Origin: Naegleria gruberi
Taxonomy: Eukaryota
Assembly (NCBI GenBank): GCA_000004985.1
Contig: GG738912.1
DNA: 64,000 bases
Strand: one strand, 5' to 3'
The notes under the pieces were generated by a model. The model saw only the letters and a program-made list of their open reading frames with translations, was not told the origin of the DNA and searched no databases. Positions 1 through 64,000 of the stretch are shown piece by piece. The translations under genes and the position numbers were made by a program. Position 1 is the first letter of the stretch; each line of letters starts with the position of its first letter.

Positions 1-959
1 CAGTTGGAAATTGTGGTTTTTGGTTCATTATTAGAATTTCCATTTTGAGAGTTATTCGAAACCTCAGGGTAAGTTTCATTACAGCTAATTTTGAATCGTG
101 AGCATTGTTGGGATGTTGGTGGAACGTAAAAACCAGTATACATGTTATCTAACTTCCATGAATCATCAGATTGTTTTGTCCAACTCTATATTTGAAAGAT
201 AATTCAAAATTCCAAAATAGGTAAAATAAAAAAATACATGAAGAAAACCTACCGAACTTTCTTGTGTATAATCCCCACATGGTCCTGTATAATTGTACTT
301 GAAATTACTCAATTCCACAGTTCCATTAATTTGAATATTAGCACAGCTGTGATAGACACTTCCACATAATTCTGAGTTGCCTGTTTTTGTGGTTGGATAG
401 GAACAACAACCTGATTGTTTATCAGTCATTGGGTTGGTTAATGAGATGGAACATTTTTGGCATTTGATATTTGGAATGTCAACTAAATATTGGTAAACTT
501 TTAGAGAGCTACTGTCTGATTGATCATTGTGTGGAATGTGATCGATCAAAATGTACTTTTCATAATTGGAATCAGAGTTGATACTCAGTGCAATACGAAA
601 GGGAGCTCCTGTATGTGAAATTGTTTCTTCAAATTGAAGAATTTGCTTTCCTGGTTGAAGAATTGTAACTGGTTGACCATTTCCAAAGAATTCAACACCT
701 CCACATGGATAACTTTTTAATCCAGAATCTGATGTTCTTGGTCTAGTAGTATTTCATTCAAAATCGTCCAATTTCATGTTTAATATTTTTAATAATTTAC
801 AATTAATAATTAATTTACATGATTGTTGATATTTTAATAGTATTTTAAACACTCACGTTGGATATTTCCATCTAGCATGCCCACTAACTGATGAAATCAT
901 AAACATTCCGATACACAAAAAGAGGAAAACCAACTGTTGTGAAACTGTCATTTTTTTCA
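1..959 (-). CDS. secreted protein whose predicted mature N-terminus is His (histidine-brace / LPMO-like candidate); 3 exons; 3' end runs off the window
   Basis: ATG at 959-957 encodes MKKMTVSQQLVFLFLCIGMFMISSVSG (signal peptide) followed by HARWKYPT. A GTGAGT donor at 856 and introns 743-856 and 186-252 (GTAGGT..ATAG) keep one reading frame through ORF 166-549 and on into 1-185. The downstream part is Cys-rich (…GAPFRIALS…, CCSYP…). Exons are 959..857, 742..253 and 185..1. Confidence 0.55.
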
Positions 960-1051
960 TGAATTGATTTGTGATACTTGGTTATTGATCTTTACAATCT
1001 AGGTTTTTATTTACAAATATTGTTGCAAAAACGATGGTTTTGTTAGCAATC

Positions 1052-1420
1052 TCATGGCATGGCAACAATCTCTGCATGGCTTGGTAACTTCAACGTGCCA
1101 ACTAATCTTTCCTCTTCAGAACTCAACAAGACGTCAACATTTCTGCCAAACCATTCACAGGGTATTTCCACCTTAAAGTAAAACGAAGATGATTGTGGTG
1201 CGTAGCATTGTGAGAAGATGGTTTTGTTATTATCTCGGAGGGTCATGCGAATTTTGAAGAGATCTTGTTCTTGTTGAATGAGACATCGTAAATCGTACGG
1301 ATATCTATTCGAAATGTGAATATCTGCGAGTGGCTTATCATTGTGAAGGTCAATGTCTGTGAGTTTTAGTTGAACTTGTCTTGTGTTTTTGATGGTTGGT
1401 GGAGAGGTGAATGCTGTCAT
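1052..1420 (-). CDS. hypothetical protein (122 aa)
   Basis: Clean ATG-to-stop ORF flanked by AT-rich spacers; no recognisable domain. Confidence 0.4.
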   Translation of the reverse strand: MTAFTSPPTIKNTRQVQLKLTDIDLHNDKPLADIHISNRYPYDLRCLIQQEQDLFKIRMTLRDNNKTIFSQCYAPQSSSFYFKVEIPCEWFGRNVDVLLSSEEERLVGTLKLPSHAEIVAMP

Positions 1421-1720
1421 GATATTGTTTGTTTTTTTTCACATAAAGTTTCCTCGCTCTCCTATTTTGCCGAACCTTTTCGTATGTTTTCTGATTATTT
1501 GGTTCGGTTGCCTTTTATGTGAAAAAATTCATATTGTAAAAAAATGTTATATACTAATAAAGTAAGCATGAAAATAATGATCAATAATTTTTTTACCAAC
1601 CATTGCCACAAATAGATAAAATGTGAATATACAATGAGCTCTTCACAAGCACAAATAGGCTAGAGCCTCAAAAGGCAAAGCAATTATAATCCATGCAAGT
1701 AGATGTCCATTAATGTTGAA

Positions 1721-5346: not shown

Positions 5347-5373
5347 ATGATTCAAAGATTTTATAATACTGTA

Positions 5374-5964: not shown

Positions 5965-6028
5965 TTTTTATTGAGATTCTTATTGGTTACATCAATTACA
6001 GAACTTGAAACGCACTATTGAATTGAAT

Positions 6029-7779
6029 TTATTGCGTTGGATCAAAGAATAAAACCAAATCCACTCGATTCTTGGGATTAGGGGAGGTGGTAAAAAGAGT
6101 ATCCTCAGAATCGTCAAATTTTCGAATCCATAATGCAAATTTTCGTAACGTTTCGCTGTCTACTTCTTGTATGTATATTTGCAATCGATCTTTGAACAGA
6201 CCTTTCTTTGTGCTCGTTAACTTTCGTTCTCTCTCACTTGGTAATAAGGTAAAATCGAATAGCTCATTATTAAATGTTATTGTTCTCGAATGGTTATCTT
6301 GGTTCTCTATGAATGACAGGTAAAATACGTTGGTATCCTTATATCTGGGACGCGAGGGATTATGTGGAAAGTGGATATCCACAAAACGTTGTTTAGCTAT
6401 TGGTGCAATATCCTTATGATGTACCAAGTTTTTCAATACTGTTTTTGTCAATTCCTTTCCATAATTCGTTCCACTATTTGGTTCATTCATCATGAAACAA
6501 GTTACAATAGCTCCGTGATATTGTTCATTTCTTTTAAACAATGCAGAGAGAATGTAAAATCTTGTTAAAATGTGAGAATTCTTCACAATGCTCAGAATAC
6601 AGTCATCGTCTCCAAAGTGTTTGGCCAATTCTATCAGCTTAAGCTTTGCTTCACAATCGGGTAGTGAACCATCAAGCAAATATTTTACATAGCTATTGAA
6701 TGTAGGCATTATAATAGGAGTTCTATCTTTGAAAGAGGAATTTCCAATATCAATAAAAACATTTGAATTTTTTTTGAGAATTGGGTGGTAATCTGTCAGT
6801 ATCTTTGAAAAGAACTTGGACCTTTTCAAATGCTTTACACATAAATTGTGATATTGATTTTCATAGCCAATCAAAAATTCTTTCTCTGGATCTAGAGTTT
6901 CATTCAGCTCTGAAATGATTTTGCCTTCAGGGAATTGTGCATGAGCAAAGTTCAACTCTGGTTCATCAAAAAAGAACTCTAAATCCACCGATCGATTTCT
7001 TGACTTGGAGAGCCAATAATTCGATGCTCCCAAATTCTGTTCCACTCCAACTCCTGTTAGATATTTAATTCCTACTTGTATCTGAGCTGCAACATCATCT
7101 CTCTTTGCTGCTTTCAAATACAACTCAAATGCTTTTTTGTAATCTTGTTTTACATGAATTCCAAATTCGTAAAATATTCCTAGGTTGTATATTGCATCCG
7201 AATCACCAATTCCAGCATACTCAGAATACCATTCAAACTCTTCACTAAAATCACGTTCCATTCCTTGAGAAAACATGAATAATCCAGAGGATTTAAAACG
7301 TCCAATTGCACTATTTGATTTTTCAAACCATTGCATAGCCATCATTACATTTTCCTTAACAACTTTTCCCTTCTCAAAGAAGGTTCCAATCTTGTATTTG
7401 GAAATTTCATCACCTTGTTCCGAGGCTTTCATATACCATTCCAATGCTTTTTCATAACTTTTCTGCACTCCCTTTCCTTCATCATACAACCATCCAATAT
7501 TAAACTGAGCATGAGCATCACCCTGTTCAGCAGCCTTCCAATACCACTCAAATGCTTTAACATAATCCTTTTCACTCCTCTTCCCTCCTCAAACAACAAT
7601 CCAACATTGTATTGAGCATCGGAATGTCCCTGCAAGGCTGCTTTCATATACCAATGCATTGCTAAGGCACAATCCTGCTTTACTCCATCAGAACCCTCAT
7701 CAAAACAAAGCCCCAAATTATATTGAGCATCAGCATCACCTTCCTCAGCTTGTTTAAGGTAAAGATCGAGCGCGGACAT
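6029..7779 (-). CDS. Sel1-repeat + BTB/POZ domain protein, interrupted by one frame break
   Basis: ORFs 7429-7779 and 6029-7489 both read as Sel1 repeats (…AEQGDADAQYNLGLCFDEG…, …GDAHAQFNIGWLYDEGKGVQKSYEKALEWY…). Adding one A/T to the T4 run at 7569-7572 restores GVKKDYVKAFEWYWKAAEQGD and joins them. The C-terminal third resembles the BTB region of the paralog at 10613-12228. Confidence 0.6.
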
Positions 7780-22709: not shown

Positions 22710-23821
22710 TTTGATTCGAAATTTGGAATTAAACCTGATAATATTACACTCACAACAATTCTTCTGTCCTGTGCTGAACATCATGATATTGGAAAGGGTC
22801 ATACCCGACTACATCAAGGAGAATAGACTTGTTGGTGATGTCTCATAAACTTTTACTCTAAATGTACTGATTTAGAGACTGCTCTCTCAATTTTCGAATC
22901 AATTATTAAGAAAAAGAAGGAAGTGAACTCATACACGTACAATGCTATTATTTTTGCATGTGCAGAGCATGGGCAGTCAAGCCATTGCTTTAAATTCTTC
23001 ACTCAAATGATACAGAGCAATATTGAGTTATTGCCAACACCAGAAACATTCACAGCTTTGCTTACTGCTTGTAGCCATTCTCATATGTACGATAAAGCCT
23101 GGGATATCTACAATTCTATGGGAACAAGTTTCGGTATTGAACCAAGTAATATTCATACATCTTGTTTGATTGATGCACTAGCGAGATCTGGGCAATTTGT
23201 GAAAGCTCTTGAAATAATTGGAAAACGCAAAGATAAAGTATATTGGATGACTCTGATGGGAGCATGTAGAAAATTCAACCATGTTGAGATAGCAGAGAAG
23301 GCTTTTGATGCATTGATTGACATTGATTCAACAGATGGTTCATATTATGTTTTATTATCCCATATTTATATATTCAACAATCAAATGGAAAAGGCAGCAA
23401 CAATAAGATTTAATGAAATATAATAATGGCTCAAAAGTTGTTGGAGTCACTTCTGTGATACATTGGCGACGAGATTCACACCCAGTGATGACAGATAAGC
23501 ATCTCATTCAAGTCGAGCTTGATAAATTGATTAATGAACTAATGGAGGCAGGTTATTCTCCAGATACTAGATGGGTTACCAGAATAGAAACTTTGAGCAC
23601 TGAAGAAAAACGAAACCTTTTATGTAGGCATTCTGAAAAGATTGCCATGGCGTATGCTTTTGTCAGAATGCCAAAAACTAAACAAATAGTCTTATTCCAA
23701 AACCTGACTGCCATGAAGCAACAAAGTACATTTCCAAAGTGAGAAAATGATTGTTGTGAGAGATGCAAGTCGATACTACCATATTAAGGACGGAAAATGT
23801 AGCTGTGGTGATAATTGGTAA
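22710..23821 (+). pseudogene. truncated PPR–E–DYW (plant-type organellar RNA-editing factor) gene with several frame disruptions
   Basis: Conceptual translation across three frames gives …FGIKPDNITLTTILLSCAEHHDIGKG / VIPDYIKENRLVGDV / INFYSKCTDLETALSIFESI…YTYNAIIFACAEHGQ…TFTALLTACSHSHMYDKAWDIY…CLIDALARSGQ…, a PPR/E motif series. It continues …SHP…HSEKIAMAYAFV…NL.CHEATKYISKVRKMIVVRDASRYYHIKDGKCSCGDNW*, a DYW deaminase domain that has HxE but lacks the first Cys of CxDCH. There is no N-terminal PPR array and no in-frame start. Confidence 0.5.
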
Positions 23822-24852: not shown

Positions 24853-27742
24853 TTGGATCACAATAATATTATACAATATATTATAATATTCAAGAATAAT
24901 TATACTATGAATCATCCTGCACCCAATAATAGTGATATCATCAACTATGCAAATGGGCATCCTCATCGTCATAACCAACAACAACAGCAGCAACAAGATA
25001 CTCAACACTTTTATTCAAAATCCTATCCAACTTCCTTTAATAATGAAATTGGAAACATCAACAGAAGTGAAGGGGTGAGAGAACCACTCAACCCTGTTTG
25101 GAATAATACTCAACCATATCAGAACCCAAATAAGAGTGCAGCCTCCATGCTCATGTTTCCTCATGATGATGACAGAAGTCCTCTAACCTATTCATTAATA
25201 TCTTCACCTGCCAACAATACTACAAATACAACAACACCATGTACATCTTCTCACAACCGTAATGCTAACAATACCACTAGTTCAAGTATACCACAAGCAT
25301 CAACAGAGAGATCCTCATGTACTAACTACATGTATCCAACGTCCTCAAACAACAACTCAAACATCCAACAACAATATCCTCAAAGGAAACAATCTTCTCC
25401 ACCACCTCACTATCCAATCAGAAATAATAATCAATCTGTACATGATGTGGCGCCTTCACCCATACAGCGTAATACACCTTCTTCAAATGGCTCAACCATA
25501 AACAGTCAATTGCTCCATGACTGTCGGGGTGTACAAATTAATAATTATGATATACCTAGTTCGAATTGTCAAAGAGAGGATGGAAAATCATTCATCCAAC
25601 AACCTGATCAGCTTGTCCAAACAAAACAAGAATTCAAAACAAACATAACCATCAGTAGCAGCTCGGATATTGATTTTCCCAACAATATGAATAATACCAA
25701 TAGAGTTTCGACTGATCATCATCAGCCTACATGTATTATTAATAATAATAATTATAATAATAATAATAATATGAACGAATTCAATAACACTAGAAGAACA
25801 ACATCATCATCAACATATGGTTATAATAATAATAATTCTACGACATTAGACCAGAATATGTTTAATAATTCCTCTTCACCACCTCCTTCTTCCATGTTGC
25901 AATATTATAACTCACAACAACATCATAACAACAACAATAACTCTGTATCAAATATTCCTAATCAGAAGAGAATTTCTCCAACTGTAAATTATGAATCTTC
26001 TTCGACTGGTAGGATTGTTGATGAATCAGCATCATATCATAATGGTAGTAGAGCAACAACAAGCTTACCACAACAACAGCATGCAGCAACATCCTCACAT
26101 GACAATACACATGTACTACCTTATTATAATGCACATCCTTCTAGACATGCATCGCCTACATCCACCACCTATCAATACTCCCCACATCAGCAGCACCAAC
26201 AACAACATGTACAACAATCACCTAGAAGTTTGCCAACTGATCAGCCGAGAGAATATCCTTCTTCTTATTCTGATCCAGTGGTGAGTAATTCTTCTCAACC
26301 ACCACAGTATCAGCCATCATTACAGAAAGATAATAGATCGTTGGATCCTTCTTATTCAGCTAATGGATATCACTCGCAACAGCAGTATCAATTAACAACA
26401 CAAATAATACTACTAGCAGCAATCATACTAGATCAAATTTAAGTGCTAATTTCCATTCCTCAACTGATTTTTCATTTAGTGGAAGAAATGCAAGTCATAG
26501 TGGATCCTCTGATGATAATTCTGATTCAAAACTGAATCATGGAGGAGCTTTGAATGGTGATTCTAGAAAACACAAGAAGAAAGGTCCAAAGAAGAGAGAA
26601 ATTTCAAGAGATGATATGAAAAAGTATTTCCATGTTTCTCAAACAGTTGCTGCTAAAATGTTAGGAGTTTCAGTTAGTACTCTTAAAAGAAGGTAAGTTG
26701 TCTTCTCGAAGAAAATCATCTAATTCTTGTATTTATCATGTTTGCTCTCATGTACATTGATTGCATAATACTTAATGTAAATGTATTAATTATCAATATT
26801 ATGTTGATGCATCTTACATCCAATGCATGTATCTGAATTTAAATTATATCGGATGAACCAATTCGCTTTTTGCTGATTCCTCCCTTAATGCATTTAACAT
26901 TGGTATTTACCGTAAAAAAACTTACTTTCATATTTGGACTTTAAGATTTTATGAGGAGTTTAACATGAAATGGCCATATGTGCCTTCAAAAACCAATACT
27001 TCAAAGAGAAAGAAGGATGACAATGGGGAGACAACATTGGGAAGTGGTGATAATAGTCAACAAAACTCAGATGAGCATGCTTCATCACATGAGATGGTAC
27101 TTCCTCATCAACAACAGCAACTGCAACCACCATCCTCATTCGATTCACCTTATAAGAAATTGAAGAGAGATGTTATCTTTGATCCACCAAATAATGTAGT
27201 TAGCGAGCAAAATCATCTTTCTGCAACATTCACATACTTCTTATCAAAATAATGTTCAGAATGCACCACCACCTCAATATTCTCAAATGAATGATAGAAA
27301 TTCATCCACACATGGATCCATGCATGCCTATCCAACATCCATTAATGTAAATAATAATCATATAGAAAATGGATCAACTAGTTTACATATCAGAAATGAG
27401 AATGTTTCAAATGTAGCTCCAACAAGACATGCTCAAGTGGTTTCTTATCAACATGCTGAACCTTATCCTCCTTCCTCTTCTGCTACCATTCGAAACAATA
27501 TCAATAACAGTACATCTACCTCACTCATGTCTTATCATGCTCCACAACAAACAATGAACCATGCCAATCATGGTATCATACATTCTAATTCACCTCCTGG
27601 TTACATGATGAGAGGAGAAGATGTTTATTCATCAGCTGCAACTACATCTCAATCACAACATTTTGAAGCAGCTACAGTTTCTGGACCAACTACCAATATG
27701 TTACCTCCTATTTCCTCTTTTAAAATGGAATCTTGGAAGTAA
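24853..27742 (+). CDS. N/Q/S-rich RWP-RK domain protein; at least 3 exons
   Basis: A long low-complexity ORF shifts frame by one base near 26380-26400 into SANFHSS…KKREISRDDMKKYFHVSQTVAAKMLGVSVSTLKRR (RWP-RK N-terminal half). The GTAAGT donor at 26693, intron 26693-26945 and acceptor TTTAAG give R-FYEEFNMKWPYVPSK (the RWPxRK position reads MKWPY). A second intron 27196-27259 (GTAGTT..TTCAG) joins to ORF 27287-27742. Confidence 0.55.
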
Positions 27743-39945: not shown

Positions 39946-42587
39946 ATGGGAACATCAAACTCTAAACCAACCCTGCAAAACAAAGGTCACAAAAGGACAG
40001 CCTCGTTTGAAACTTACCCAACCACTACTCCGAAGAAGCCTAAAACCACAATTGATCTAAAAACTGTTAACAAATATGAAAATATTAAAGAAAGGGCAAA
40101 GCGATCATTGTATTCCATGGCAGACACCATTAGACTTCCATTCGTCAACAGAGAGCAATCGTGTGAAGCCTTAATGCTGAATCTGATACGACAAAAAACT
40201 TCAGTTCATGGAATGCTTCCAATTTTGAGTCAGCATTATGGAAGCGGAAAAACACGTCTTGTTCATGAGTTTCGTAAAGCACTACCAGAAAGAGGCGATT
40301 TATCATCGCTAAGATTAACTGAGTCTTCTAATATCGTTGCCAACAATTTAATGAAAGCAACTCTTGTAAATATGGACATGTCTAATGCTACATTGACAAC
40401 CTCCCTTGATAATGATCTGGATTTTCCTAATGGTGCTATTTCAGATCTATTCTTACAAGAAGTAGTTATTGCATTGAAGCATCTGTCATCAGAGAATAGT
40501 GATCCACTAATTTTAAAATCGTTAAGAATTCTCAACTGTATAAGTGTGCCAAATATTTATGACCTTAATAGAGAAGAATTAATCATTTATGATTGCTTAA
40601 TTAAGTGCACTAAGTGGGCCAGTTTTCTTCGTAAATATTCTCAATTTGAATTGTACCCTCTATTGATACTAATAGATGAAGCATCATATTTAGAATATCA
40701 CTACAAGGAAGGATATTCCTCCTTTGTAAACCTTTGGGAAAGTACTTTCAAAACAACAATGGGATCATACGGAGATAAAGTAAGAACACCTGGTATCTAC
40801 TTTATTGTTTGTGGAGTTTCCTCAAACTTAACCAAGTTGGGAAGAGGTTTACTAAAAGTTTCGAATAAGGTTATTTCGCCTACACCCGCTGTGCATATTA
40901 TATTGGATATGCTAAAAGTAGATCACATTACAGAAATGTTCCAGAAAGTGGTTGTAACAACAGATGGAAATAACATACGAGAGTTCACTGAAATATTTTG
41001 TAATATAGGAAAGAACTACGAGTACTTTTGTAAAGTGGTATTCATCTATACAATAGGATTGCCCAGATTGATCGAATATGTTGTCTTATCCTTACTCAAT
41101 TTTGTTAAACAAAATCATTCAATAGATTTCAGCAGTAGAGAGAGAATAGATGCTGTATTTGATAACTTTTTAATGAGAAAAGAACTAGCCCTTGTGAGAA
41201 ATGCAAAAGAGATTTGCCCATTCTATACCAACCCATTCAATGATGAGAAAATCGACAGACTTATAGCACTTTTTACGATGGGACTAATGGGATTTCCCGT
41301 ACCAATCGCTGATGAATATATTTCAGAGATTGATCTACTACATAATCTGAATGTGGCTGTTGAAACACCTACTGTTAACGATGATCGAGTATTCAAAATG
41401 TATATTCCCAAGTTCACTTTGATTAAGGCAATGAATGATAACAATATGAAACATATTTCAATACTTTCTTGCCTTCCTCAAAGATTTTATGATTACATAG
41501 ATAAAGGTGATTTACTCAAACAACTATTCCTTGACACAATTCTTACCCGTATATTATTTACTCTGAGGACTTCAGATTCGAACGAATGGGACAAAATTCA
41601 TTCGATATTTTCACTTCCAAAAATCTTGAAAAACAAACAGTTGGAACTGGATATGAACCTTCCTGTTAGATATCTCCCTAAAATTGTAAGCTCAGATAAT
41701 AAGAACACCCCTAAAGCTCTTTCTTTTTCTAAAAGACATCCCTGGTGTTTCAATATGAGTTACAAGTTTTGGAATGATCTTTATGGATTGCAAATGAATG
41801 GCGGCGTGATAGGTCATCCGGCTCCTAAATCCAAAAGTCCAGATTTTGTAATATCAGTTCCACCAAATTCTGCCATATCTATTGCATGCAAGAATTTTTC
41901 CTCCAAATTCTCATTAAGTATGTTACAAGATGAAATAGATAAGGCCAGTCTAGTGGAAAAGAACAATGTACTATTCATATTTTCTTCCCAACTGTGTGAA
42001 ACGTTATCAAATGCTTGCCTAGAACAAGGTTATATTCATCTGTATGAAGGAAAATGGAAATTTGATGATTATTTGCAATTTCATGAGTTGAAGAGCATTC
42101 CTAATCTAAAATATAGAGCAAAAGGCACCACCTATGTGGCAAACACCATTAATGTGTATCCGAAAATGGAAGTAATTATTTTAGGAGAGAAATTGTTTAA
42201 ATCTTTCTTTTTGGAGGATGAGCAATCACCTATGGATATTCATCTCAAATGATCTTCATAGAAGAGAAGTTACTTCCATATGCTGGTGGAAGTTATGAAA
42301 CAGCATCCAGTGTTACTGGAGGAGAAGGTCAACCACCACCACATCCAGTTACCATTCCAAGAATGCTTGGAAATGGCCCATCTCTACTAGATTTGAGATT
42401 GCCATCCAATGTACTGGAATATATACTCGAACTCTTGAGAACTAACTCAGGTCCAGGATCTGTACTAAACGAAAAGGTTGCACAATCTGAAAAGGATGAA
42501 AAGGAAGCCAAGGATTTTGATATCTTCAATCCTCATCATGATCATCATGATAAGAACGATGATGACTATGACTACAATCTAAATTAA
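39946..42587 (+). CDS. N-myristoylation-motif P-loop NTPase (Walker A GSGKT, Walker B LLILIDEA); likely about 880 aa once the frame is repaired
   Basis: MGTSNSK fits MGxxxS. ILSQHYGSGKTRLV is a Walker A motif and YPLLILIDEASYL is Walker-B-like. ORF 39946-42252 stops at AAATGA inside an A-run; adding one A reads …HLK-MIFIEEKLLPYAGG… through ORF 42249-42587. Confidence 0.6.
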
Positions 42588-43954: not shown

Positions 43955-46900
43955 ATGAAAATGACAGATGAATATGACCTTTCAGATAGTGATGATGAAA
44001 TGATGCAAGATACTGAGGAAGATAGAGGTTTCAGTGCTGAAGAAGAGAGAAAGCTTGCTTTAAGACAACAGGAATTGGATGAAGCAGCTCAATATTATGA
44101 ACCAATCGATGAATCAAAGGAAGGTGTCTATCATGTCAAATCATTTGATGCCAATACTGAAAAAGTGAGATGGAAGGCTGACTTTTCAAAAATGGCACAA
44201 AAGCAATATTCTCCAACATTTACTATTGCTGGAAATCATGAATTTAGATTACTTGTTTTCCCAAGAGGTAATCAAGTACCTTGCATCAGTCTTTATCTTG
44301 ATACCAATAACTCACAAGAAATCAAATTGGTTCGTTTCCAAGTTTCAATTTTGAATCAAAAGGATATCAGAGAGTCACACTCACAAGGTTTGTTTACATT
44401 ATCAATAATTAACTCATTTTGAATTTAGATGCTGAGAAAAGATATGGTCCAAATGATGTCGATTGGGGCTTTAAAGAATTTATTGAATTGAAAAAAGTCA
44501 ACCCAGATGTAGGATTCATATCTACTAGTGGAATTGTATATTTTGAAATGGTTATCCACATCTGTACTCAACCATATCTTATTGATCCAATTTCTTATGA
44601 TTCTAGAAAGGAGACAGGTTTTGCTGGCTTGCAAAATCAAGGTGCTACTTGCTATATGGTAAGTTTAAAAATTGATATAATTTTTATTAACATATTTGAT
44701 AGAATTCTCTTCTTCAAACATTGTATCTATTAACTTATTTCAGAAAATCGGTTTATAAAATGCCAATCGACGAAAATGAAAAGCCTCAAGATAGTATTCC
44801 ATTGGCATTGATGAGAGTTTTCTTTAGATTACAATTTGATAAAGGTGCTGTGGATACTAAGGAACTTACCAAATCATTTGGTTGGGATACTATAGATTCC
44901 TTTTTACAACATGACGTTCAAGAATTTGCTAGAGTTCTGATTGACAATTTGGAAAAGAAAATGGAAAAGACTGATCAAAAGGAAGTTATGAGACAAATTT
45001 TTGAAGGAATGTGTAAAAATTATATCAAATGTATCAATGTTGATTATGAATCATCTAGAAAGGAACCTTTTTATGATTTGCAACTCAACGTTAAGGGATG
45101 TAAAAATGTAGCTGAATCTTTTGATCAATATATTTTGGAAGAAACTTTGCAAGGAGAAAACCAATATCAAGCTGAAGGACACGGTTTGCAAGATGCTAAG
45201 AAGGGTACTAACTTTTTGAAATTACCACCAGTTTTAATGTTGCATTTGAAGAGATTTGAATATGATTATATCAGAGATTTAATCTACAAAATTAATGACA
45301 GATATGAATTCCCACTTGAAATTGATTTAGGAAAGTACCTAAGCGAAGATTCCGAGCAAAAGAAGGAAGATAATACCTATGTTTTATTCTCGGTTCTTGT
45401 ACATAGTGGTGATGTTTCTGGAGGTCACTATTACAACTTTGCTAGACCATACATTAATGAAGATAGGTGGTTCAAGTTTGATGATGAAAAAGTCTATGAG
45501 GTCAATGAAAGTCTCGCAGTTCAAGACAATTATGGTGGAGAAGCAAAGAAGAGTAAGATGTTTTGGTTGTCATCAAATCCTAACTCTGTCTACAAAAAGT
45601 TTACAAATGCTTACATGTTGCTTTATATTAGAAAATCTGCTATTTCTAACATGATTGCTCCAGTTGAAGTTGATGAAATTCCATCTCATTTGGAAGAAAG
45701 ATTCCAAAAGGATAGAGATGAAAGAGAAAGAAAAAAGAGAGAAAAACTTGAAGCAGCCAAGTATTGCAACATTAAGATTGTTACTGATGATGATATCAAA
45801 AAATCTGTTGAAAAGACTGGATCCGGTTTGGTTGAATTTGAAGATGTGGAACCTATCAAATTCTTAAGAGAAGGTACTTTTGCAGAATTGAAAGAGCAAA
45901 TTGAAACTCTTTATGGTATCAAGGCTGAACAACAAAGATTTTGGAAGTGGCAAAAGAGACAAAATCATACTCTCCGTCCAGATGCTATTATAAAACCAGC
46001 CGATGATGCTTCTACTATTGAGAGAAAGTATCCATATGTTAAGCATCAACAAGCTCCTCCTGTAGAATTATACCTTGAAGTGTCAAAACAAACTTACTCT
46101 TATCAAAAGGATGATGAGGAATGTGTTGTTCACTTCCCAGAACCAGCACAAAGATATATTCTCTTATTTATCAAGGAATATAATCCAGAGGAAAGAAAAT
46201 TGAACTTTGTTGGTACTGTATATGCTGATATGTTGAGTGAAGTCTCTGAAGTTATCCCATCCATTAAAGCCCTCATTGGTGCTGATGAAGATGATGATAT
46301 TCATATTGTTGAAGAAATCAAACCAAAGATGATTGATGATGTTAGAATTGATCAAAGCTTTAAGGATGCTCAACTCCAAAGTGGAGATATTCTTGCCGTT
46401 CAAAGAGTTCCAAAGGGAACTGACTTATCTAAATATCCAATTCCAACAGCAAAGAGTTATTACGACTATTTGAATAACCGTGTTTCTGTTGAAATTAGAA
46501 AATTGGAAGATCCTTTAAAGAATGTTGCAGTTGTCGAACTTTTGAAGAATATGGAATACAAGGAGCTTACTGACAAGCTAGGTTCTGCTCTTGAAGTTGA
46601 TGGAAATTTCCTTCGATTGACTGGTCACCATCCTTATAGTGAAGGACCTTTGGAGCAACCATTTAAGAGTAACTCAGGCTCTACTTTGAAGGATATGATC
46701 AACATTGGTCAAACCCCTCAAAAGATATTGTATTATGAAATTTTAGATGAACCAATATTTAATGTCGAAAATAAGAAAGAATTGATTGTGACATGGATGA
46801 ACTCTAAATGCCAAGATGTAGAAAAGTTCAAATTCCTTCTCTACCCTGACCAAAAGGTCAATGATTTGAAGCAATTGATTGAAGCCAAGGTCAATGGACG

Positions 46901-48266: not shown

Positions 48267-49179
48267 ATGAAACCAACAAAAAGTTATTCTAAAGTGATTC
48301 ATCCACTTCAAGAACAATTCGACATGATGTATTTGATATTTGAATTTATTGGAATCTCTCCGATCGTGGCTGTCGATTTGTCTCTTGTTTGTAAGGATTG
48401 GATGCAAGTTATTCGAAAGTTGCCAATTAGTTTAAATTTGTTTTATGCTTCAAGAAATTTAAATCTGGAAATGAGTGAAAAATTAGACGAATTGTTATTC
48501 TAACCTATTTAAGCTTGGCAAGAAATGACATTTCTCACAAAGGAGCTTCCTATATTTCGTCCAGTTTCAATTTATCCCAACTGAAACATCTCAATCTCAA
48601 TGGAAACCATATTTCAGATGAAGGAATATACGAAATTTCACAACTCGAAACTCTAACAAGTTTACATTTAAGTGGAAATCAAATTACCACCACAGGTATT
48701 ATCACCCTATCTCAAAGCCCCTTCTTAACCAATTTACAATCACTCAACTTGAGAAATCTAAAATCATGTCATGAGATCGAAAATTCACAAAACAAGTTTA
48801 CGAGAATTTTTATGGAGCTGAGGTTTGTGAAATAATTTCACAGAGTTTGAGTTTGAAGAATCTCACTCGTTTGGATTTGCTCGATGAAGCGATTACGCCA
48901 AAAGGAGTCAAATTGCTGACTGACAGCAATTCGAAACTTGACTATTTGAAGAATTATATTAGAAATGTTGAGATTTCGTATTATGAGAGGAAAGAACGTG
49001 GTAGAACAATTGGAGATTGTTCTTCAACCCTAATGTTGAAAGTTGAGTGTAAGGAATTCAATCCTCCAATTCGAATTGATTTTGTAGTTGGCCACTCTTT
49101 ATATCCCTTTAATGGAATAGAATATGAATTCATGATTCATGACTATCGACATTGCAGATGTTATTCTAAAATTTACTAA
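48267..49179 (+). CDS. F-box-like + leucine-rich-repeat (RNI-type) protein, split by two single-base frame breaks
   Basis: ORF 1 (F-box-like LIFEFIGISPIVAVDLSLVCKDWMQVI), ORF 2 (LNLNGNHISDEGIYEISQLETLTSLHLSGNQITTTG) and ORF 3 (SLKNLTRLDLLDEAITPKGVKLL) are in three different frames, all LRR-like. Adding one A in GAAAAATT (about 48480) and one base at about 48775 joins them. Confidence 0.5.
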
Positions 49180-50787: not shown

Positions 50788-53700
50788 TTAGTGGTATTGA
50801 TCGAAAAATTTAAAAGTCAATTTGAGTTGTTTCAACAATTCAATTGTTGCACTCAATTCATCTCTGTAGGATGTGTTCAATAATAAGGAGGTGGTAGGAT
50901 CGTAATACTTCTTCAAATAGGATAATGTTGAAAAGTGAGTCAGTTGCAAGATGAGTGTTGTCATGACATCCTTGTGGAAACAAAATTGGACTAAAAGATG
51001 TGCCAAGTTAGAGTCTTTGTGAACATCATTTGGTAATTTCTTCTTAATACCAGACACATCAATAAACTTGTTAAATTCCTTAACGATGGCATCGCCTTGT
51101 GGGCTCAGTCCTTTCATAATTGTGACAGGAGATTCCTTGTATGGTTTGTTGGTAAGGAATGCCTTCTTTTCCAATCTATGGTCCAATAAGAGATTTTCAA
51201 TAGAGACACAGATACGTTCCATATATTCCTCGAATGGTCTCTCGTTGGTGCAATTGAATTTGAAATAAACTTCATCATTATTATCAGTGTAGGTTGTAAT
51301 AGCCGATTGTGAACGTTGTGAGGCCAAAGTAATGAGTTGTTTCACATTTTCTCTCAGGGATTGAACAACCTCGGTTGGAGTTTCAAATTGTTCATTAGCT
51401 TGATCGTTTCCATAATTTGTCACTGTGACAGAATTTGGTCTATCTTCATGTTTGAGTTCAATTGATTTCTTTGGGCTTTCGGTGTGGATAACTTCAATAG
51501 AGTTACTGGTATTATCATGGCTCGAATCCTCTATTGAAAGATTCAGAGTTGGGAAGGATGAATCACTGTGAGCTTCTGGGAACATTTCAATAATGGACTT
51601 TGGAGCTTCAGGTTTCTTTTTAGGTTTCTTCTTCTTGTCTGACTTTTTCTTTCTTTCAATTACTAAATCTCCAACTTCTTCAACAATTTGATCCTCAGAG
51701 TGCTTTTTCTTCTTTTTGGTAGAGCTGGATCTCTTCTTGTGTGATGGCTCTGCTAAGGTATCGTTTTGAGAATGTGATGAGACAGTATTGGAAGACAGTT
51801 CATCTTGATCAGTCAACACAACATCAGTAGAATCCTTTTCTTCCTCTGTGCCTATGTGAAGAGTGTTGGAAGCATCTTCAGAACTTTCCACAATAATTGA
51901 GGGTGTATTGTCTTGACTGAGTGATGCATCATCTGAAGGGGAAGAGGTGGAAGGAGAGCTGATCTTTGGCGAAGTTTCCACAACTGAAGTTTCTAAGACT
52001 GTTGGTGTAGGAGCTTCTACGACCTTTGGTGATTCTTCCACTATGCTTATTTGGCTTGATTTTCAGGATGTTTCTTCTTCAATTCTTCTTCCAATTTACG
52101 TTGTTGTTCCTCAATGATTGCATGTTCCTTTTTCTTTCTTTCCTCATCTTCTTTTCTTCTCTTTTCCTCTTCTGCCTTTTTTCTTTCTTCTTCGATACGT
52201 TTTTGTTCTTCCTCTCTTCTCTTCTTTTCATCATCTTCCTTCTTTCTCCTTTCTTCTTCTGCTTTCTTCTTCTTTGCTTCAAGCTCTTTTTGTTTTCTTT
52301 CCAGCTCGAGCGCCTTTTCCAGTTCAATCTTTCTCAATTCCTCTTCAATTTGATGGACACACTCATCATACCTTAACTTGGAATCCCCAATTAGGAGCTT
52401 TCCCTTTTCGTGCCAAAATATTTTGAGATCGGTAAGAGCTTTTTCCTGTCTTGCTGATTCCAGATGGTTAGTAAATTCTAATTGTAAATCTCTTTGTTGT
52501 CTGATTGTGGTTATGTACATGTCCAATTTTTTCATTTCAATTTGAGTGTCACCTTTAGTTCCTAAGCTTTCAACAACTTTTCTAGCTCTCTTTCTAAAAT
52601 CAATGACATCTTGATAAATACGATTGAGTTCTTGCTCGCTCTCCACTTTGGCACAGTTTCTCACAAACAAATCATTGGAAAATGAGCTGGTGGCATTAGA
52701 TATTGGCGATAATACCTTATCCTCCAGATATTTTAACTTTTCTTTCAACTCGGTCTTTGTACTTTGTTCGTTATCCATTTTGACAATGTGCGCCGATGCT
52801 TCCTCAATTAACTCGTTCAATTTAGTCGATTTTAAGTAATAATTCTCGGATTTTTGTTTAAGTTGCTTGATATTTTCAAGAGAAATGTCACTAAGGATAT
52901 GTCTAGTTTGAAGAACTCTGGTAAATTCATCCTCCAATCTATTTAAATCATCAGCCATAACGCAAGCGTTCGAATAGTATTCTTCAATTTCAATTTGCAG
53001 ATATTTAGAATCAAATTTCAAAAAATTAATTTTGAATATGATTTCATCTGATTTGTTAGGTATTTTGATGATTCCTGCTTTGATTTCATTAACAATATCT
53101 CTGATCAAATCGCCATCTTTTACATTCATGGAATTGATCAATTTTTCACCAAGGTTCAAAATATGCTCGCAAATGACGACTTCCCATTTACTTTCTGGAA
53201 TATAACCAATCAGAATTCTAAATTTGAGTGGCCCTTGACTGAAAAGTGTTGGTCGGTGAGCTATGGCATGATGTTGCAGCTTTACAATAAAATCCATAGG
53301 AATCAGCGAAGGATAACAAGGGAATGTATCAGTAATATATAAACTGGATGGTTTTTCTTCTGCTTGTGAAATATTTTCAAAAGGTTCCTCATACAATTCA
53401 AAATACTGTATCAATTGCTTGAAAATATCATTCTTTCCTGAAGATGAATATGTAATTGGTGAGATATTTTCTTTAAATTGATTAAAGAACCCAGAAAGTA
53501 CGGTAACATCAAAATTATAATTTGATGAAGATGCTGTAATACCTGGAATATTTGATAATCCAGAAACATAGGTAATATTTTCAATAAATAATTTGTAAGC
53601 ACCAATGTGTGATAATTGAGTTTTCACTTCACCTAACCCTCCTGTTTGTTGACTCAAAGTATCTTCCAGAAATACCATTTGTTCAAATTCCTCAAATACA

Positions 53701-54191: not shown

Positions 54192-54775
54192 GATTGAATA
54201 ATTATAATTAATGTGTAATTACATATATATTACATACAATATGATGATTGATTGGGTAATTCAGAGTCGACCATAACAAATTCATCCTCTCCATCATCGT
54301 CATCATCAACGTGATCCTCATGATGATAGAACAACTTGTTAGCACTCGTATCCGATCGACTGCCTCCAACAATATTCTTCAATAGATTCATGATGATCCT
54401 TTTCCTCTTCAATTTATTCAATCAATATTCAACAACAGCAATATATTAACCGTTCAAATTTGAAACCCTGACCAAAGCAATAACAACAAGAATAATTATC
54501 TATTGTGGTGCTACTACTGCTGTAGAATGATCGGTGTTTTTTCTGTTGTGTGATTATTTGAAGTGTCGTTTGAAAAGTGATGGCGTGATAACCTCTTTGT
54601 TTTTTTAATTGGAAATGAACAAGAGTCCGAAAATTATTCACTCCGGACCTTAATATTTTATAAATTAATAATTATAATAACTATTGAAGCGTTAACAATT
54701 CTCAACTCTCCAGGTAATAATAGTGCCTATGGTAGGTAATAGTAGATTCGAATAGGTCTCAATCTAGAACATTAT

Positions 54776-55812
54776 TTAATGTTTGAGGAGTTGTTCAATT
54801 TGTTGTTGGAGGTTTTCTATGGAATCGTATTCTTGTTGAGCTTTCATAGAGGAATAGAGATGTGTGGAAAGTGTGGAGGTCACAATGAAAACGAAAAGGA
54901 AGAGCACAATATCTGAAATGAATCGATCTACACTCACCCAAATTCCTTTAACAAATAAGAACATATCCAAAGCTGATTCAGTATGCATGGAAAATATGGA
55001 TTTACCACTCAGTAATCCTGGTAAAATTATTGCCAATTCAAATGTAATTAATACTGAAACTGGTGTAAATTGACTAAAATAGCCCAACAAGGTATCCAAT
55101 CCTGCAGCTCCAAAATGCAATTTTTCATTATGATAGAAAGTAGAAATAGCACACATGAATGAAAGAATCAAGATGAAGAGAGGTCTTAATTTTTCGAAAA
55201 TACCTGGTTTGGCTTTTGCACTTGCTTCCTTATCCCAATTTGCAAGATTTGGTATTGCTGATGTTAGTGAATCATGTGTTGAAATACTTGGTTCTATAGT
55301 GATTGGTTGTTCGTATTCTCTGGTCTCCTTCTCAATTAATTTAGGATCATGTAGCTTGAAGAGTGGAGAGTAGGCTTCCTCTACTTTTTGATTAATTAAT
55401 AAGCTCAATGCTTCGATAGGTGAAGGATGTGAATGAGATGGTAATTCCGATGGTTGTGATACTAATGATGGATTTTCAACACTAACAGGTTGTTGTGTAG
55501 ATGTTCCTTCTTGTTGTTGTCCGATGAATCTTTTTCTTCCTTTGATTCCAAATTTTCCACTGCTGTAGAAGATGATGGTGTTGTAGTAGGAGCAGAATCA
55601 CCATACATAATCTTATTCATTCTCGATTCTCCTTGTCCTTTAATCTTCTCAAGTCTCCTCCTTCTCAAGATTTCTCTCTTTTCTTCATCCGTTAATTTTC
55701 TCTTTTGCATAACAGGTGGAGTTGATTGTTCGGCTCCTTCATTGTTAGAAGTTGGTGTTATTTCCTCTTGTGTTGTTGTTGTTGGGATTTGTTCGTTGTC
55801 TTGTTCAGTCAT
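54776..55812 (-). CDS. GET2/CAML-like tail-anchored-protein insertion receptor subunit (candidate), with one frame break
   Basis: N-terminal ORF has KRKLTDEEKREILRRRRLEKIKGQGESRMNKI, which resembles the Get3-binding basic motif of Get2/CAML. C-terminal ORF 54776-55408 (no ATG; TTG start) has three TM helices. The frames meet around 55460-55540. Confidence 0.5.
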
Positions 55813-60461: not shown

Positions 60462-61889
60462 ACAAGATCCGTAGCCAATATCTCAATAAGTTAATAATAT
60501 CGGGTACAGTTCAATAAATAAGGATATATTTTGTACTTTCTTTGGAATTGCATTGATCGATCTGAAACAGCAAGTATCATCACTGCATTCTCTCACCTTA
60601 ATACATGATCCTTAACAGTTATTAAACTCTTTCACTCTGCAAAATCACACAAATGATGTCCACTTTACATTTTCATCATGTAAATCATCATTGATTGTTG
60701 ATAGTGAATAGTGTAACCAAATAGCTTGCAATAATGTTATTAAAGAGAAGGTTTTTTCCAAGTTTGTTCTGACTCATTATCTATCAATACCAAAACAGCA
60801 GCCAAATTGCGTATTCTACATCCAAACAAACTCAAAAGATTGTCCAAACATTCTCTCTAACCACAACTGGAGTTTTTTGCATCCCTAACAACAACAATAT
60901 CTGCCATAATATATTGGCACTAACAGTTCAGTAAAGAGAACGCCACCACAACTCATACAAACTCTTGCTGCTTGAAATTGCAACCAACAACAATAGGTAT
61001 ATATTGCACTCACACAATATTCATACATATTCTTTATATTAGAGAAAAAGCACACAAAAGTATTAATCACTTGGTGGCGGTGTCAAAAGGTTTGTTTTTT
61101 TGAAATTTTGAAGTTTTTACTAATTGATAATGTGCTGCTCATTGGGATGATATTTGGTTTCATCACTAATTATCATCATTATTGTTTTACAATTATTGCT
61201 ATCGGGTAAAATCATTCGTAAATTTATGTTATCCATATTATGATGATATATTATTGGTGTTTTGATTTTACTTTGATGATGGAATATCCTTGAATATATA
61301 ATATTTAATATTATGTAATATTAATCATGATCAATACTATGAAATGTTCAATACTACTATTATGTACCATACCAAATGTATCTTCTCTGAATGATCATCA
61401 TACCATCAACAACTTTCATCAGCAATCATCAAATCATCAACACAAGAAGAACAAGATCATCATCTCTAATCTTCTTCTTATTGTTGTTATAGCATTATAC
61501 AACCGAGAGTAGAATTGGAATATCTCAACAGTAATCATTGTTGTCTATTGAAAAAACTTCACATCATCATTGTTAGAACTTCTTGTTAGGAATATAGATA
61601 ACAACGACCACCATCACCATCATTACTACAACAATTTGTTACTAGTATTGTGTCGACATTGTAATTATCTTACTCGAAATTTTCAAAGGCTTTGTTCATA
61701 GAGAACGAACAGAAATAATCAAAAAGTCTCTAGAGTGCTCGCTCGCTTCTCTGTAAATATTTACTTCACGAGCTCGAGAGTTGCTCTCATCATTCATAGC
61801 TATATTGTATTCGGTGTGGTGTGTTCTGTTTTGTGGTCTTGTTGCAAGAATAACAACAACAGCTGAGCGAAAAATCATCACACAAACAA

Positions 61890-63836
61890 ATGCCACAGCA
61901 CAACAAGGGAAATAATTCTTCTTCTTCGTCAAGTCAACAACATCATCAAGAACAACAACAGGAAAGTTCTTCCTCTTCCTCCACTATTGCTGCTGCTGGT
62001 AATAATAATAATAATACAACTACTACTACAACAACAACTACCTCTGAGACAAATAGTGGTTCCAATAATTCCGCTACTTCCAATTCGTCATCATCTGGTG
62101 TTGCCAATAATTCATCTCATCAAATAATAATAAGAATAACAAACAACAAGGAAATACAAATTCCAATAGTACAAATAATAATAATAATAATAATAGTAAT
62201 AATAATAACATGATGACAAATCAATCATCAACGCCTACCAATTCCTCCTCCTCCAACAATAACCAATCCTCTAATAATTCAAATGTACAATCCAACAATA
62301 ATCAACAACGTAACTCTCCACAAAATCAACGAACATCACAAGATCAAACAAATGGTATGGACCAACAATCAATGCATAATTTAATGTCTGGCCAAGTTGA
62401 TCCTAATAATATCAACGGCAATGTAATGTCAAGTTTAGATGCCAATTCGTTAAGTATGATATTAATGAACAATAATGGAGGAATACCAAACTTGAATGCC
62501 CACCAACTTGTTCAACTGTTTAATTCAGATCCAAGCATTTTGAATAATCCATTCGTTAGAAAGCTCCTTACAAATAATGGAAATATGAATGGTATTGCAG
62601 GAAACATGCCATCACAAGCAGGTATGATTGCTGGAAATAACGGTAATATGAATGGTATTGTAATGGGTAATGATCCAATGAATAATATGAATAATTTACA
62701 ACAAGGAAACAAGGAACACCTCGTGGTGCAGGCAACAATCCATCGGGAGGTTTTAATGTTCAACAACAACAACCTAATAATAATAATGTTGGAAATAATT
62801 CATCTCTAGGAGTTACTCAAGAAGATGGTCTTTCAGGAAATTTATCTAGGATGTTTAATGTGAATATGATGCAAAATGGTGTTCCACAAGGAAATAATCA
62901 TATCGTGATGAATCAGAATATAATGAATAGAAATGTAACACCTAATAATCCATTTTCACAACAGCCACTACAAATATCCAATGGTAGTGGTAATTGGAGT
63001 CAAGGTGAATTGGAATATCTTAAAATTGCTATTGCCAGACATCCAGATAATGTCGATTTGGTACGCCAATGTTTTCCTAAACGTTCTGCTCAAGATGTAC
63101 AGAATAGAATACAAATCATGATTAATGAAATGAAACAACAAGGAGTCATGCCAAATGGCAATAGAATAATAATAATGTTTCAACACCGACTGCTCCTAAC
63201 AATGTCAATAATAAGAGACCTAGTATTTCAATGCCATCACCTGGAAATGATCAAGCCAAGAGAGTGAAGACAGATTCACCTGTAAACAAGACATTTAATA
63301 GTACTGGAACACCATCATCCCCTTCAACCACTTTGGTGTCTAACTCCAATTCTACTAATAATAATAATAATACTGCTAATAATAATACAGCCATCAATAA
63401 GCAAAATATTGCACCATCTGCAGCTCAATCAGAACGATACATTCAAACACTTTTACAAAATAATAATTCACTCATATCAGAAATCAAAGGAAATATTGAT
63501 CAAAGGAAAATTACATCCAATGTAAATCTTATCAACAAATTTAGAGATAATATTATTCAAATTTTAACGTGTATGTCAATGATGGAAGGTATTATGAGTC
63601 AAATGCCTCCAATACCTGTAAAATTGAGCACTATTTGTGTACCTAAGGGTGTCACTAATAACACACCAACTAGTAGTAGTAATCAACCAAACAACCAACA
63701 ACCTCAACCTTCACAACAAAATATTGTCACAACTCCAAGCACGCCCCAAGATAATAATTCCACAACCACTTTCCAAAATATGTTAGGATCTTCCAATGGT
63801 GGAGGTTTTATGATGAACAATAAGAAAATGTTATAA
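61890..63836 (+). CDS. N/S/Q-rich SANT/Myb-like domain protein (about 650 aa), split by three single-base frame breaks
   Basis: Four consecutive ORFs in frames 0, 2, 1 and 0. Each junction (about 62130, about 62720, about 63170) is repaired by adding one base (for example AA to AAA at 62718). ORF 3 contains WSQGELEYLKIAIARHPDNVDLVRQCFPKRSAQDVQNRIQ (SANT-like). Confidence 0.55.
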
Positions 63837-64000
63837 ACACATATATTTATTTTAAAATGTAAAAAAGGAAACTATTCCACCAATAAATTATTTGATTTCC
63901 AAAATAATTAGTTTATTAATTTTTTATTTATTTTATATTAATTAATTACATCCTTAACGACCAAATTCTGTACAATCTTTTGCAATCTGGAAAAAATTGC

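What the first reader, a model, noticed from the sequence alone, without database searches (positions are those of the whole stretch)
1..64000. Systematic pattern of frame breaks repairable by adding one base in short A/T runs
Seen in sequence: at least twelve places show two adjacent ORFs that clearly belong to one protein but are offset by a +2 (−1) frame. Adding one base, usually to an A3–A5 or T4 run, restores a continuous, protein-like translation. The sites are the Sel1–BTB gene at 7569-7572; RWP-RK at about 26390; the ATPase at about 42247; F-box/LRR at about 48480 and about 48775; the 1130-aa protein at about 52055; the GET2-like gene at about 55500; the SANT-domain gene at three sites; and at least four in the PPR-DYW remnant. 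Two ORFs (50788-52041 and 54776-55408) have no ATG at all. Inference: a uniform single-base deletion bias in homopolymers is a sequencing-chemistry or assembly-polishing signature (pyrosequencing or uncorrected long reads), not independent pseudogenisation. The ORF track therefore over-fragments genes here.
Basis: inference. Interest (0 to 1): 0.6.

Follow-up and report, generated by a model that had tools for sequence, protein, structure and literature searches.

The report
Frame breaks in Naegleria reference assembly
This stretch of the Naegleria gruberi reference genome holds about fifteen one-base reading-frame breaks in otherwise healthy-looking genes; they are most likely small errors of the 2010 draft assembly, not dead genes or exotic biology, and they have corrupted the public gene models.

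Summary
The window is nuclear DNA of Naegleria gruberi NEG-M and matches the JGI reference scaffold of 238,573 bp. That assembly was made with Sanger reads.

The frame breaks are real in the sequence. Ten sites in seven otherwise intact genes all need one extra base. A PPR-DYW gene has five more changes: three need +1 base and two need -1.

At the four tightly bounded sites (L, G1, K, E) there is no room for a spliceosomal intron. At the low-complexity sites no candidate intron is convincing. No site shows a programmed-frameshift signal.

Three results bear on cause:
- For the ~1130-aa gene, the N. lovaniensis and Willaertia orthologues are single continuous proteins. JGI's bridging "intron" removes conserved residues.
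- At the Sel1 site, an independent, Illumina-type contig from a ~98-99% identical strain has an intact frame. There the window lacks a T and has an A for a C three bases away.
- Fifteen frame changes occur with no nonsense codon, and they cluster. Natural coding indels between the two strains are in frame.

Most likely these are consensus indel errors in a draft Sanger assembly (about 0.6). Real, possibly heterozygous, alleles come second (about 0.25).

The chemistry it named was wrong, and the link to homopolymers cannot be shown.

The parts
7569..7575 (-). Site L: 1-nt deficit inside a Sel1 repeat of the gene 7779->6029.
   Evidence: The repeat register needs 6 nt where 5 (AAAAG) are present. 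ENA contig L002 reads GGAGTTGAACAGGAT where the window reads GGAG-TGAAAAGGAT, and its ORF is intact. The repaired protein scores 169 bits on Sel1.
26364..26439 (+). Site B1: frame switch (+1 nt needed) in the low-complexity linker of the RWP-RK gene (24907-27742).
   Evidence: ORFs 24847-26439 and 26364-26693 overlap. The RWP-RK domain lies in the second ORF. The only GT-AG candidates are 32-35 nt with a poor 5' site. No JGI model and no homologue were found.
42222..42249 (+). Site E: frame switch (+1 nt needed) between a 768-aa P-loop ORF and a 112-aa ORF.
   Evidence: The window is 28 nt and holds no intron candidate shorter than 95 nt. The downstream ORF scores 0.43 bits per codon. Whether the two ORFs form one protein is inferred; no homologue was found.
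48479..48500 (+). Site G1: 1-nt deficit in an LRR repeat of the F-box/LRR gene (48267-49179).
   Evidence: The window is 22 nt. The LRR register LLF-LTYLSLARNDI is restored by one base. The repaired protein matches LRR_6 and LRR_4.
48775..48832 (+). Site G2: second frame switch (+1 nt needed) in the same F-box/LRR gene.
   Evidence: The repeat is irregular here, so a short intron is not fully excluded.
52050..52062 (-). Site K: 1-nt deficit joining the 714-aa ORF and the 424-codon ORF of one gene.
   Evidence: The window is 13 nt. N. lovaniensis XP_044546074 and a Willaertia protein cover both ORFs as single proteins. tblastn runs in the upstream frame to the last codon before TAA, straight through JGI's 59-nt 'intron' at 52041-52099.
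55465..55597 (-). Site J: frame switch (+1 nt needed) in the linker of the GET2-like gene (55812-54776).
   Evidence: The GET2 motif lies in the upstream ORF and the transmembrane segments in the downstream ORF. JGI bridges the break with an ~80-nt GTTAGT..GAG 'intron'. The downstream frame is open 44 codons before that acceptor.
62111..62210 (+). Site I1: first of three frame switches (+1 nt needed) in the DUF3755 gene (61890-63836).
   Evidence: The sequence is low-complexity and the best GT-AG candidate is only 35 nt.
62695..62806 (+). Site I2: second frame switch (+1 nt needed) in the DUF3755 gene.
   Evidence: The candidate 47-nt intron would remove a continuation of the M/N/G-rich repeat motif.
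63165..63264 (+). Site I3: third frame switch (+1 nt needed) in the DUF3755 gene.
   Evidence: The downstream frame opens immediately after a TAG at 63162-63164. DUF3755 lies in the last ORF.
22722..23819 (+). PPR-DYW gene fragment with five frame changes, near 22797, 22846, 23411, 23698 and 23744. Three need +1 nt and two need -1 nt.
   Evidence: After joining the frames, DYW_deaminase matches 1-93/93 (104.9 bits) and the E motif 1-62/63.
44388..44428 (+).
   Evidence: The spliced model is 100% identical to the JGI protein P0001.
44659..44702 (+). True spliceosomal intron in USP7, 44 nt, splitting the catalytic Cys box.
29602..29656 (+). Probable true intron (55 nt, 3n+1) in the BTB_2 gene.
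   Evidence: The frame structure is the same in the ENA strain contig L003.

Best explanation
The frame breaks are single-base consensus errors, mostly dropped bases. They sit in stretches of the 2010 draft whole-genome-shotgun Sanger assembly of N. gruberi NEG-M that had low coverage or low read quality.

Shown here:
- The breaks are in the public reference.
- The genes are otherwise intact.
- Relatives have continuous frames at the two sites that could be checked.

Inferred:
- NEG-M DNA itself carries the missing bases.
- The clusters of 2 to 5 breaks within 0.3 to 1 kb mark places covered only by poor read ends.

Consequence: gene callers either bridged a break with an invented 3n+2 'intron', as in the chimeric GET2-like plus K model, or left the gene unannotated. 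No JGI protein was found for genes E, I and B.
For: 1. Source. Six window proteins are exact N. gruberi EFC/XP entries on the 238,573-bp scaffold. The assembly is Sanger.
2. The breaks exist in the JGI sequence. Model P0121 steps around sites J and K with 'introns'.
3. Site K. The N. lovaniensis and Willaertia orthologues are continuous, and the residues that JGI splices out (RKLEEELKKKH) are conserved as RKLDELVKKKH.
4. Site L. Over the roughly 620 nt aligned there, a contig from an independent assembly differs from the window only by the missing T, an A/C mismatch 3 nt away, and one A8/A9 length difference in the 5' UTR. Two differences a few bases apart look like a poor base-call patch.
5. 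In about 11.4 kb aligned to that strain, every other coding indel is 3, 6 or 9 nt.
6. There are fifteen frame changes and no in-frame stop in about 5100 codons. Neutral decay should also give stops; about 8 is my rough estimate.
7. The breaks cluster: 3 in 1041 nt, 2 in 300 nt, 5 in about 950 nt. Simulation for the ten non-PPR sites gives p of 0.02 to 0.08.
8. About 2 breaks per 10 kb is within the range I recall for roughly 8x draft Sanger assemblies (own knowledge, not checked here).
Against: - No NEG-M reads, quality values or coverage were available, so the error itself is not demonstrated.
- The comparison strain is 1-3% diverged, so the Sel1 difference could be a real NEG-M allele.
- A rate of about 2 per 10 kb is at the high end for Sanger consensus.
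- The strong bias toward missing bases is assumed, not shown, to be a property of that assembler.
- For the low-complexity sites (B1, J, I1-I3, G2) short introns are not rigorously excluded. My coding-potential test also misjudged one probable true intron (gene C).
Confidence: 0.6

Rival explanations
1. The frameshifts are real alleles in NEG-M DNA. They would be recent loss-of-function deletions in a long-cultured, probably polyploid, clonal lab strain, possibly heterozygous and masked by intact copies. The consensus happened to pick the broken allele.
For: - The breaks are in a Sanger assembly, which rarely miscalls short runs.
- The comparison strain at site L is a different strain or haplotype at 97-99% identity, so a strain-specific mutation is possible.
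- Several affected genes belong to large, fast-evolving families such as Sel1, F-box/LRR and PPR-DYW.
- One-base deletions are the commonest natural indel.
Against: - Seven of about 35 genes would be broken, including genes conserved across Naegleria and Willaertia (K) and a GET2-like gene.
- There are no nonsense codons among 15 frame changes.
- Three same-direction shifts sit in one otherwise open gene (I).
- Natural coding indels between strains are all in frame.
- A second difference lies 3 nt from the deletion at site L.
Confidence: 0.25
2. Some or all breaks are unrecognised short spliceosomal introns of length 3n+2, as the JGI models assume.
For: - True introns here are very short, 41-67 nt.
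- GT-AG candidates of the right phase exist at most sites.
- JGI used such introns at J (GTTAGT donor) and K.
- One probable true intron (gene C) also looks 'coding' by my score.
Against: - Impossible at L and G1, where the repeat register is continuous.
- Refuted at K by orthologue conservation.
- At E the shortest candidate is 95 nt of coding-like sequence.
- Candidates are 57-74% A+T, against 79-86% for the confirmed introns.
- The single-switch model scores higher at all ten sites, whereas it loses at three confirmed introns.
- True introns would not favour 3n+2 ten to one.
Confidence: 0.08
3. The genes are decoded across the breaks by recoding: programmed -1 ribosomal frameshifting, transcriptional slippage, or insertional RNA editing.
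For: - The direction is uniform.
- The downstream ORFs are intact.
- Two sites read C-AAA-stop (K: CC AAA TAA; E: TC AAA TGA).
- Heterolobosea are known for organellar RNA editing (PMC5421314, listed).
Against: - No X XXY YYZ slippery heptamer at 9 of 10 sites. The one hit ends in G.
- No stable downstream structure; z-scores run from -1.2 to +2.0.
- A/T runs are 5 nt or shorter, too short for polymerase slippage.
- No shared motif.
- The sister strain and other species encode the same proteins in one frame, so the break is not conserved.
- Three sites in one gene would compound the loss of product.
Confidence: 0.03

Closest known systems
Consensus indel errors in draft whole-genome-shotgun assemblies, and the spurious 3n+1/3n+2 'introns' that annotators insert to step over them (the intron-length-phase diagnostic of Roy and Penny 2007, PMC1950532, seen).
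   Same: - One-base frame breaks in otherwise intact genes.
- Gene models that bridge them with short, coding-like, phase-correcting introns (P0121).
- Genes left unannotated.
- Breaks that cluster locally.
   Different: The error was not demonstrated from reads here. The density (about 2 per 10 kb) and the 13:2 bias toward missing bases are stronger than I would expect for Sanger consensus.
Homopolymer under-calling in pyrosequencing, Ion Torrent or uncorrected nanopore assemblies
   Same: Single-base deficits that break frames, with a bias toward deletions.
   Different: The assembly is Sanger. The runs concerned are only 3-5 nt, and such runs are expected in these windows by chance. At the checked site the lost base is not in the A run.
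Programmed -1 ribosomal frameshifting (viral gag-pol type), and the widespread +1 frameshifting at AAA-stop sites of Euplotes.
   Same: An intact downstream ORF in another frame. Two sites have AAA followed by a stop codon.
   Different: The direction is -1, not +1 as in Euplotes. There is no slippery heptamer, no stimulatory structure, and no conservation of the break in relatives.
Unitary or decaying pseudogenes in expanded families (PPR-DYW, F-box/LRR, Sel1).
   Same: Frameshifts in members of large families. The PPR-DYW fragment has shifts in both directions and lacks an obvious 5' part.
   Different: There is no nonsense codon anywhere, and the domains are full length after repair (DYW 1-93/93). 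Conserved single-copy genes are hit as well.

Membership tests
Homopolymer indel artefact of pyrosequencing or long-read chemistry | The sequence was produced by a homopolymer-sensitive platform. | tested here: not met
   The window is the JGI NEG-M scaffold, and that assembly is listed as Sanger (PMC9928731 Table 1).
Homopolymer indel artefact of pyrosequencing or long-read chemistry | The indels lie in homopolymer runs more often than chance. | tested here: inconclusive
   An A/T run of 3 or more is expected in 54-100% of the permitted windows. At site L the missing base is a T outside the A4 run.
Draft-assembly consensus error | Independent sequence of the same or a near-identical genome shows the intact length. 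| tested here: met
   Tested at one site only (L). ENA contig L002 has the extra T and an open frame. That organism is a 97-99% identical strain, not proven to be NEG-M.
Draft-assembly consensus error | Low read coverage or low quality at the sites. | not testable with these tools
   No traces or reads were available. Clustering of sites is only indirect support.
Spliceosomal intron | GT-AG boundaries, length at least as great as the local minimum (41 nt), A+T-rich non-coding interior, and removal that leaves the protein continuous. | tested here: not met
   Not met at L, G1, K and E. Weak candidates only at B1, G2, J and I1-I3. Met for the USP7, gene H, gene M and RWP-RK domain introns, which are separate features.
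Programmed -1 ribosomal frameshift | A slippery X XXY YYZ heptamer in the zero frame. | tested here: not met
   Absent at 9 of 10 sites. J has AAATTTG, with a disfavoured final G.
Programmed -1 ribosomal frameshift | A stable stimulatory RNA structure downstream of the site. | tested here: not met
   Five sites were folded. The z-scores were +0.84, +1.61, -1.22, -0.35 and +2.01.
Programmed -1 ribosomal frameshift | The frame break is conserved in relatives. | tested here: not met
   Relatives have a single frame at K and at L.
Transcriptional slippage | An A or T run of about 8-9 nt or more at the site. | tested here: not met
   The longest run in any permitted window is 5 nt.
Decaying pseudogene | A mixture of nonsense codons and frameshifts in both directions, with loss of domain integrity. 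| tested here: not met
   There are no nonsense codons in about 5100 codons. The direction is 13:2. Domains are full length after repair. Only the PPR-DYW fragment shows both directions.

The most novel reading that the evidence does not exclude
The one-base deficits are truly present in NEG-M nuclear DNA, and the genes are still expressed as full-length proteins through RNA-level base insertion or unconventional -1 decoding. That would be a nuclear recoding system in a heterolobosean.
Probability: 0.03. Interest if true: 0.85.

Novelty: not a real feature. Interest (0 to 1): 0.15.

Why it matters
If the breaks are assembly errors, the finding has practical value but nothing biologically new.

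In this 64-kb stretch of the only N. gruberi reference:
- One public protein, the 1418-aa model P0121, is a chimera of a GET2-like gene and an unrelated ~1130-aa gene, with two invented introns.
- For at least three genes no protein model was found in the database: the RWP-RK factor, the DUF3755 gene and an 880-aa P-loop gene.
- A Sel1 gene and an F-box/LRR gene look broken.

If this rate held genome-wide (not tested here), comparative studies that treat N. gruberi as a model for early eukaryotes would inherit missing or truncated genes. The reference would benefit from polishing with short reads.

If the breaks were instead real in the DNA, they would point either to heavy loss-of-function load in a polyploid lab strain or to recoding. 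Both could be tested directly with existing NEG-M read sets.

Tried and rejected
- Exact look-ups of window proteins and of P0001 in the contig index found nothing.
- A chimeric homologue search with repaired K+E+J returned only the JGI chimera P0121.
- A masked I+B chimera returned nothing at all, not even a JGI self-hit.
- The N. fowleri locus around USP7 is syntenic only upstream. The N. lovaniensis locus around K is not syntenic with J.
- A metagenome scan with an exact pattern across site K found no match. A protein-based scan with J+I found 600 pattern matches, none confirmed.
- Look-ups of the separate ORF pieces (J-up, E-down, L-up, I pieces, G pieces, K-down, J-down) as stand-alone proteins all failed. 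I therefore could not tell whether the ENA strain shares or lacks the other breaks.
- ENA contigs L003, L005 and L006 lie near the break sites but do not cover them.
- My codon log-odds 'switch versus intron' test separated three confirmed introns from the ten sites. It also scored the probably genuine gene-C intron as coding, so I use it only as weak evidence.
- Tiny 8-11-nt 'introns' ending in ATAG were considered and dropped as too short for a spliceosome.
- The genome paper itself (Cell 2010) is not held. PRJEB11402 is not mentioned in the library.


Full report
**Origin of the window**

The window is 33% G+C, gene-dense, and has eukaryote-type genes with very short introns. A hand-spliced USP7 model (43955-44387, 44429-44658, 44703-47429) is 100% identical over 1129 aa to 'predicted protein [Naegleria gruberi]' on a 238,573-bp contig.

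Five further window ORFs are exact N. gruberi EFC/XP proteins on the same contig: 30084-31523, 1724-3172, 7950-8981, 55997-56593 and 56958-57929. So is the M89-start form of 49230-50678. The window is therefore the JGI NEG-M reference scaffold. That assembly is listed as Sanger, 40.9 Mb, N50 159,679 (PMC9928731 Table 1).

**The observation**

I listed stop-to-stop ORFs with coding potential and every same-strand pair that overlaps or abuts in a different frame, without regard to direction. Thirteen junctions need +1 nt (3n+2) and five need -1 nt (3n+1).

Some of these are clear introns or artefacts of the survey:
- Two of the 3n+2 junctions are the USP7 introns of 41 and 44 nt, and one lies in gene D.
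- Two of the 3n+1 junctions are introns of 46 nt (59706-59751) and 52-67 nt (from 186, minus strand). One more is a shadow ORF.

Further introns are 26693-26945 (253 nt, splitting the RWP-RK domain), probably 29602-29656 and possibly 27196-27259.

The permitted windows are narrow at four sites: L (5 nt, from the repeat register), K (13 nt), G1 (22 nt) and E (28 nt).

I did not confirm a SANT domain by Pfam.

In the PPR-DYW region I find five frame changes. Joining them turns a half DYW match into a full one, 1-93/93 at 104.9 bits. Three need +1 nt and two need -1 nt.

**Are they introns?**

- At L the Sel1 repeat is continuous. GRGV is followed by five bases where six are required, then DYVKAFEWY.
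- At G1 the LRR register is continuous.
- At K, JGI's own model (P0121, 1418 aa) steps over the break with a 59-nt GTAAAT..ATAG 'intron' at 52041-52099.
  - The full HMMER search found N. lovaniensis XP_044546074 (1279 aa, 63% identity) and a Willaertia magna protein (1945 aa). Both cover the two ORFs as one protein.
  - tblastn of the N. lovaniensis protein follows the upstream frame to the last codon before the stop. It aligns RKLDELVKKKH to the RKLEEELKKKH that the 'intron' would delete. That intron is therefore false.
- P0121 also fuses the GET2-like gene to gene K. It bridges site J with an ~80-nt 'intron'.
- For the low-complexity sites, GT-AG candidates exist by chance.
  - They are 57-74% A+T, against 79-86% for confirmed introns.
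  - A single frame switch scores better than any intron of 35 nt or more at all ten sites, while the reverse holds at three confirmed introns.
  - That test also misjudged the probable gene-C intron, so it is weak evidence only.

**Is it recoding?**

- Nine of ten sites have no X XXY YYZ heptamer. The only hit ends in G.
- The 99 nt downstream of five sites fold no better than shuffles, with z-scores from -1.2 to +2.0.
- No A/T run exceeds 5 nt.
- Relatives encode the proteins in one frame.

I rate recoding at about 3%.

**Independent DNA**

The protein clusters of four JGI proteins contain members from one ENA metagenome assembly (ERZ929261, run ERR1078381, MEGAHIT-style contig names). Its contigs L002, L003, L005 and L006 align to the window at 97-99% identity (L006's distal ~1.5 kb at 94%), so they come from a closely related strain or haplotype.

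L002 crosses site L. In the roughly 620 nt aligned there, the only differences are:
- one A8/A9 length difference in the 5' UTR;
- at the break, GGAGTTGAACAGGAT in the ENA contig against GGAG-TGAAAAGGAT in the window.

The ENA ORF runs on unbroken and encodes GVEQDYVKAFEWY. So the window lacks a T and has an A for a C three bases away.

In all about 11.4 kb aligned, the other coding indels are 9, 6 and 3 nt, all in frame. Non-coding indels go both ways.

**Error or real allele?**

I could not obtain NEG-M reads, so this step is inference. Favouring error:
- Fifteen frame changes but no nonsense codon in about 5100 codons.
- Clustering: three in 1041 nt, two in 300 nt, five in about 950 nt. Simulation for the ten non-PPR sites gives p of 0.02-0.08. 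This is what stretches covered only by poor read ends would give.
- A paired miscall at site L.
- Breaks in genes conserved across genera.
- The implausibility of 7 broken genes out of about 35.
- A density I recall as within range for roughly 8x draft Sanger consensus (own knowledge).

Favouring real alleles:
- Sanger seldom miscounts runs of 3-5.
- The comparison strain is not NEG-M.
- The lab strain may be polyploid and able to carry masked loss-of-function alleles.

I put error at about 0.6, real alleles at about 0.25, unrecognised introns as a general explanation at about 0.08, and recoding at about 0.03.

**The homopolymer claim**

A/T runs of 3 or more occur by chance in 54% of 14-nt coding windows here and in up to 100% of 133-nt windows. 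Finding one near each break means nothing. The only resolved site does not support the claim. The direction bias is real: 10 of 10 outside the PPR gene, p = 0.002.

**Verdict**

The conclusion 'artefact, not pseudogenisation' is the most likely one. The stated mechanism, pyrosequencing or long-read homopolymer error, is wrong for this assembly.

The result is ordinary in kind. It is useful as a warning about N. gruberi gene models: one chimeric model, false introns, and at least three genes for which no protein model was found in 64 kb.

Noticed in passing
window 50788-55812 (-): The public N. gruberi protein P0121 (1418 aa) is a chimera of a GET2-like gene and the unrelated ~1130-aa gene K. 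It is joined through K's real first exon (about 54239-54376) and carries two spurious frame-bridging introns.
   Followed up: yes
window 39946-42587 (+); L001 9389-10001: An 880-aa (after repair) P-loop ORF (GSGKT, weak AAA_16 match) lies between the ATP_synt_H gene and USP7. N. fowleri has only about 600 nt there. It has no JGI model and no detectable homologue. It could be a lineage-specific insertion or a mobile or viral gene.
   Followed up: partly
L003 1-2684: The near-identical ENA strain carries a 695-aa transposase-like ORF upstream of the BTB_2 gene. The window has unrelated sequence there, so this is a strain-specific insertion or rearrangement.
   Followed up: partly
L004 848-2302: The same ENA assembly holds an 85%-identical paralogue of the cation-efflux gene (window 30084-31526). 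It is split into three overlapping ORFs in different frames, which could reflect introns or a frameshifted copy.
   Followed up: no
window 44388-44428, 44659-44702, 59706-59751, 38044-38090, 186-252 (-): Confirmed or probable introns are only 41-67 nt and (where measured) 79-86% A+T. They have GTAAGT, GTTTGT or GTATGT donors, and often a TTAAC motif 12-20 nt before the AG.
   Followed up: partly
window 1483 (-) and 7570-7575 (-): At two places where the window is 1 nt shorter than the ENA strain, there is also a C-to-A difference 2-3 nt away. In both cases the window then reads GAAAAGG. This may be coincidence or a shared miscall pattern.
   Followed up: no
window 35905-37110 (+/-): Long ORFs overlap in two frames and on both strands over a repetitive region. 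The peptide ends ...KPPKKVDTYKPPKKVDTYKK, which suggests a tandem-repeat protein. Not examined.
   Followed up: no
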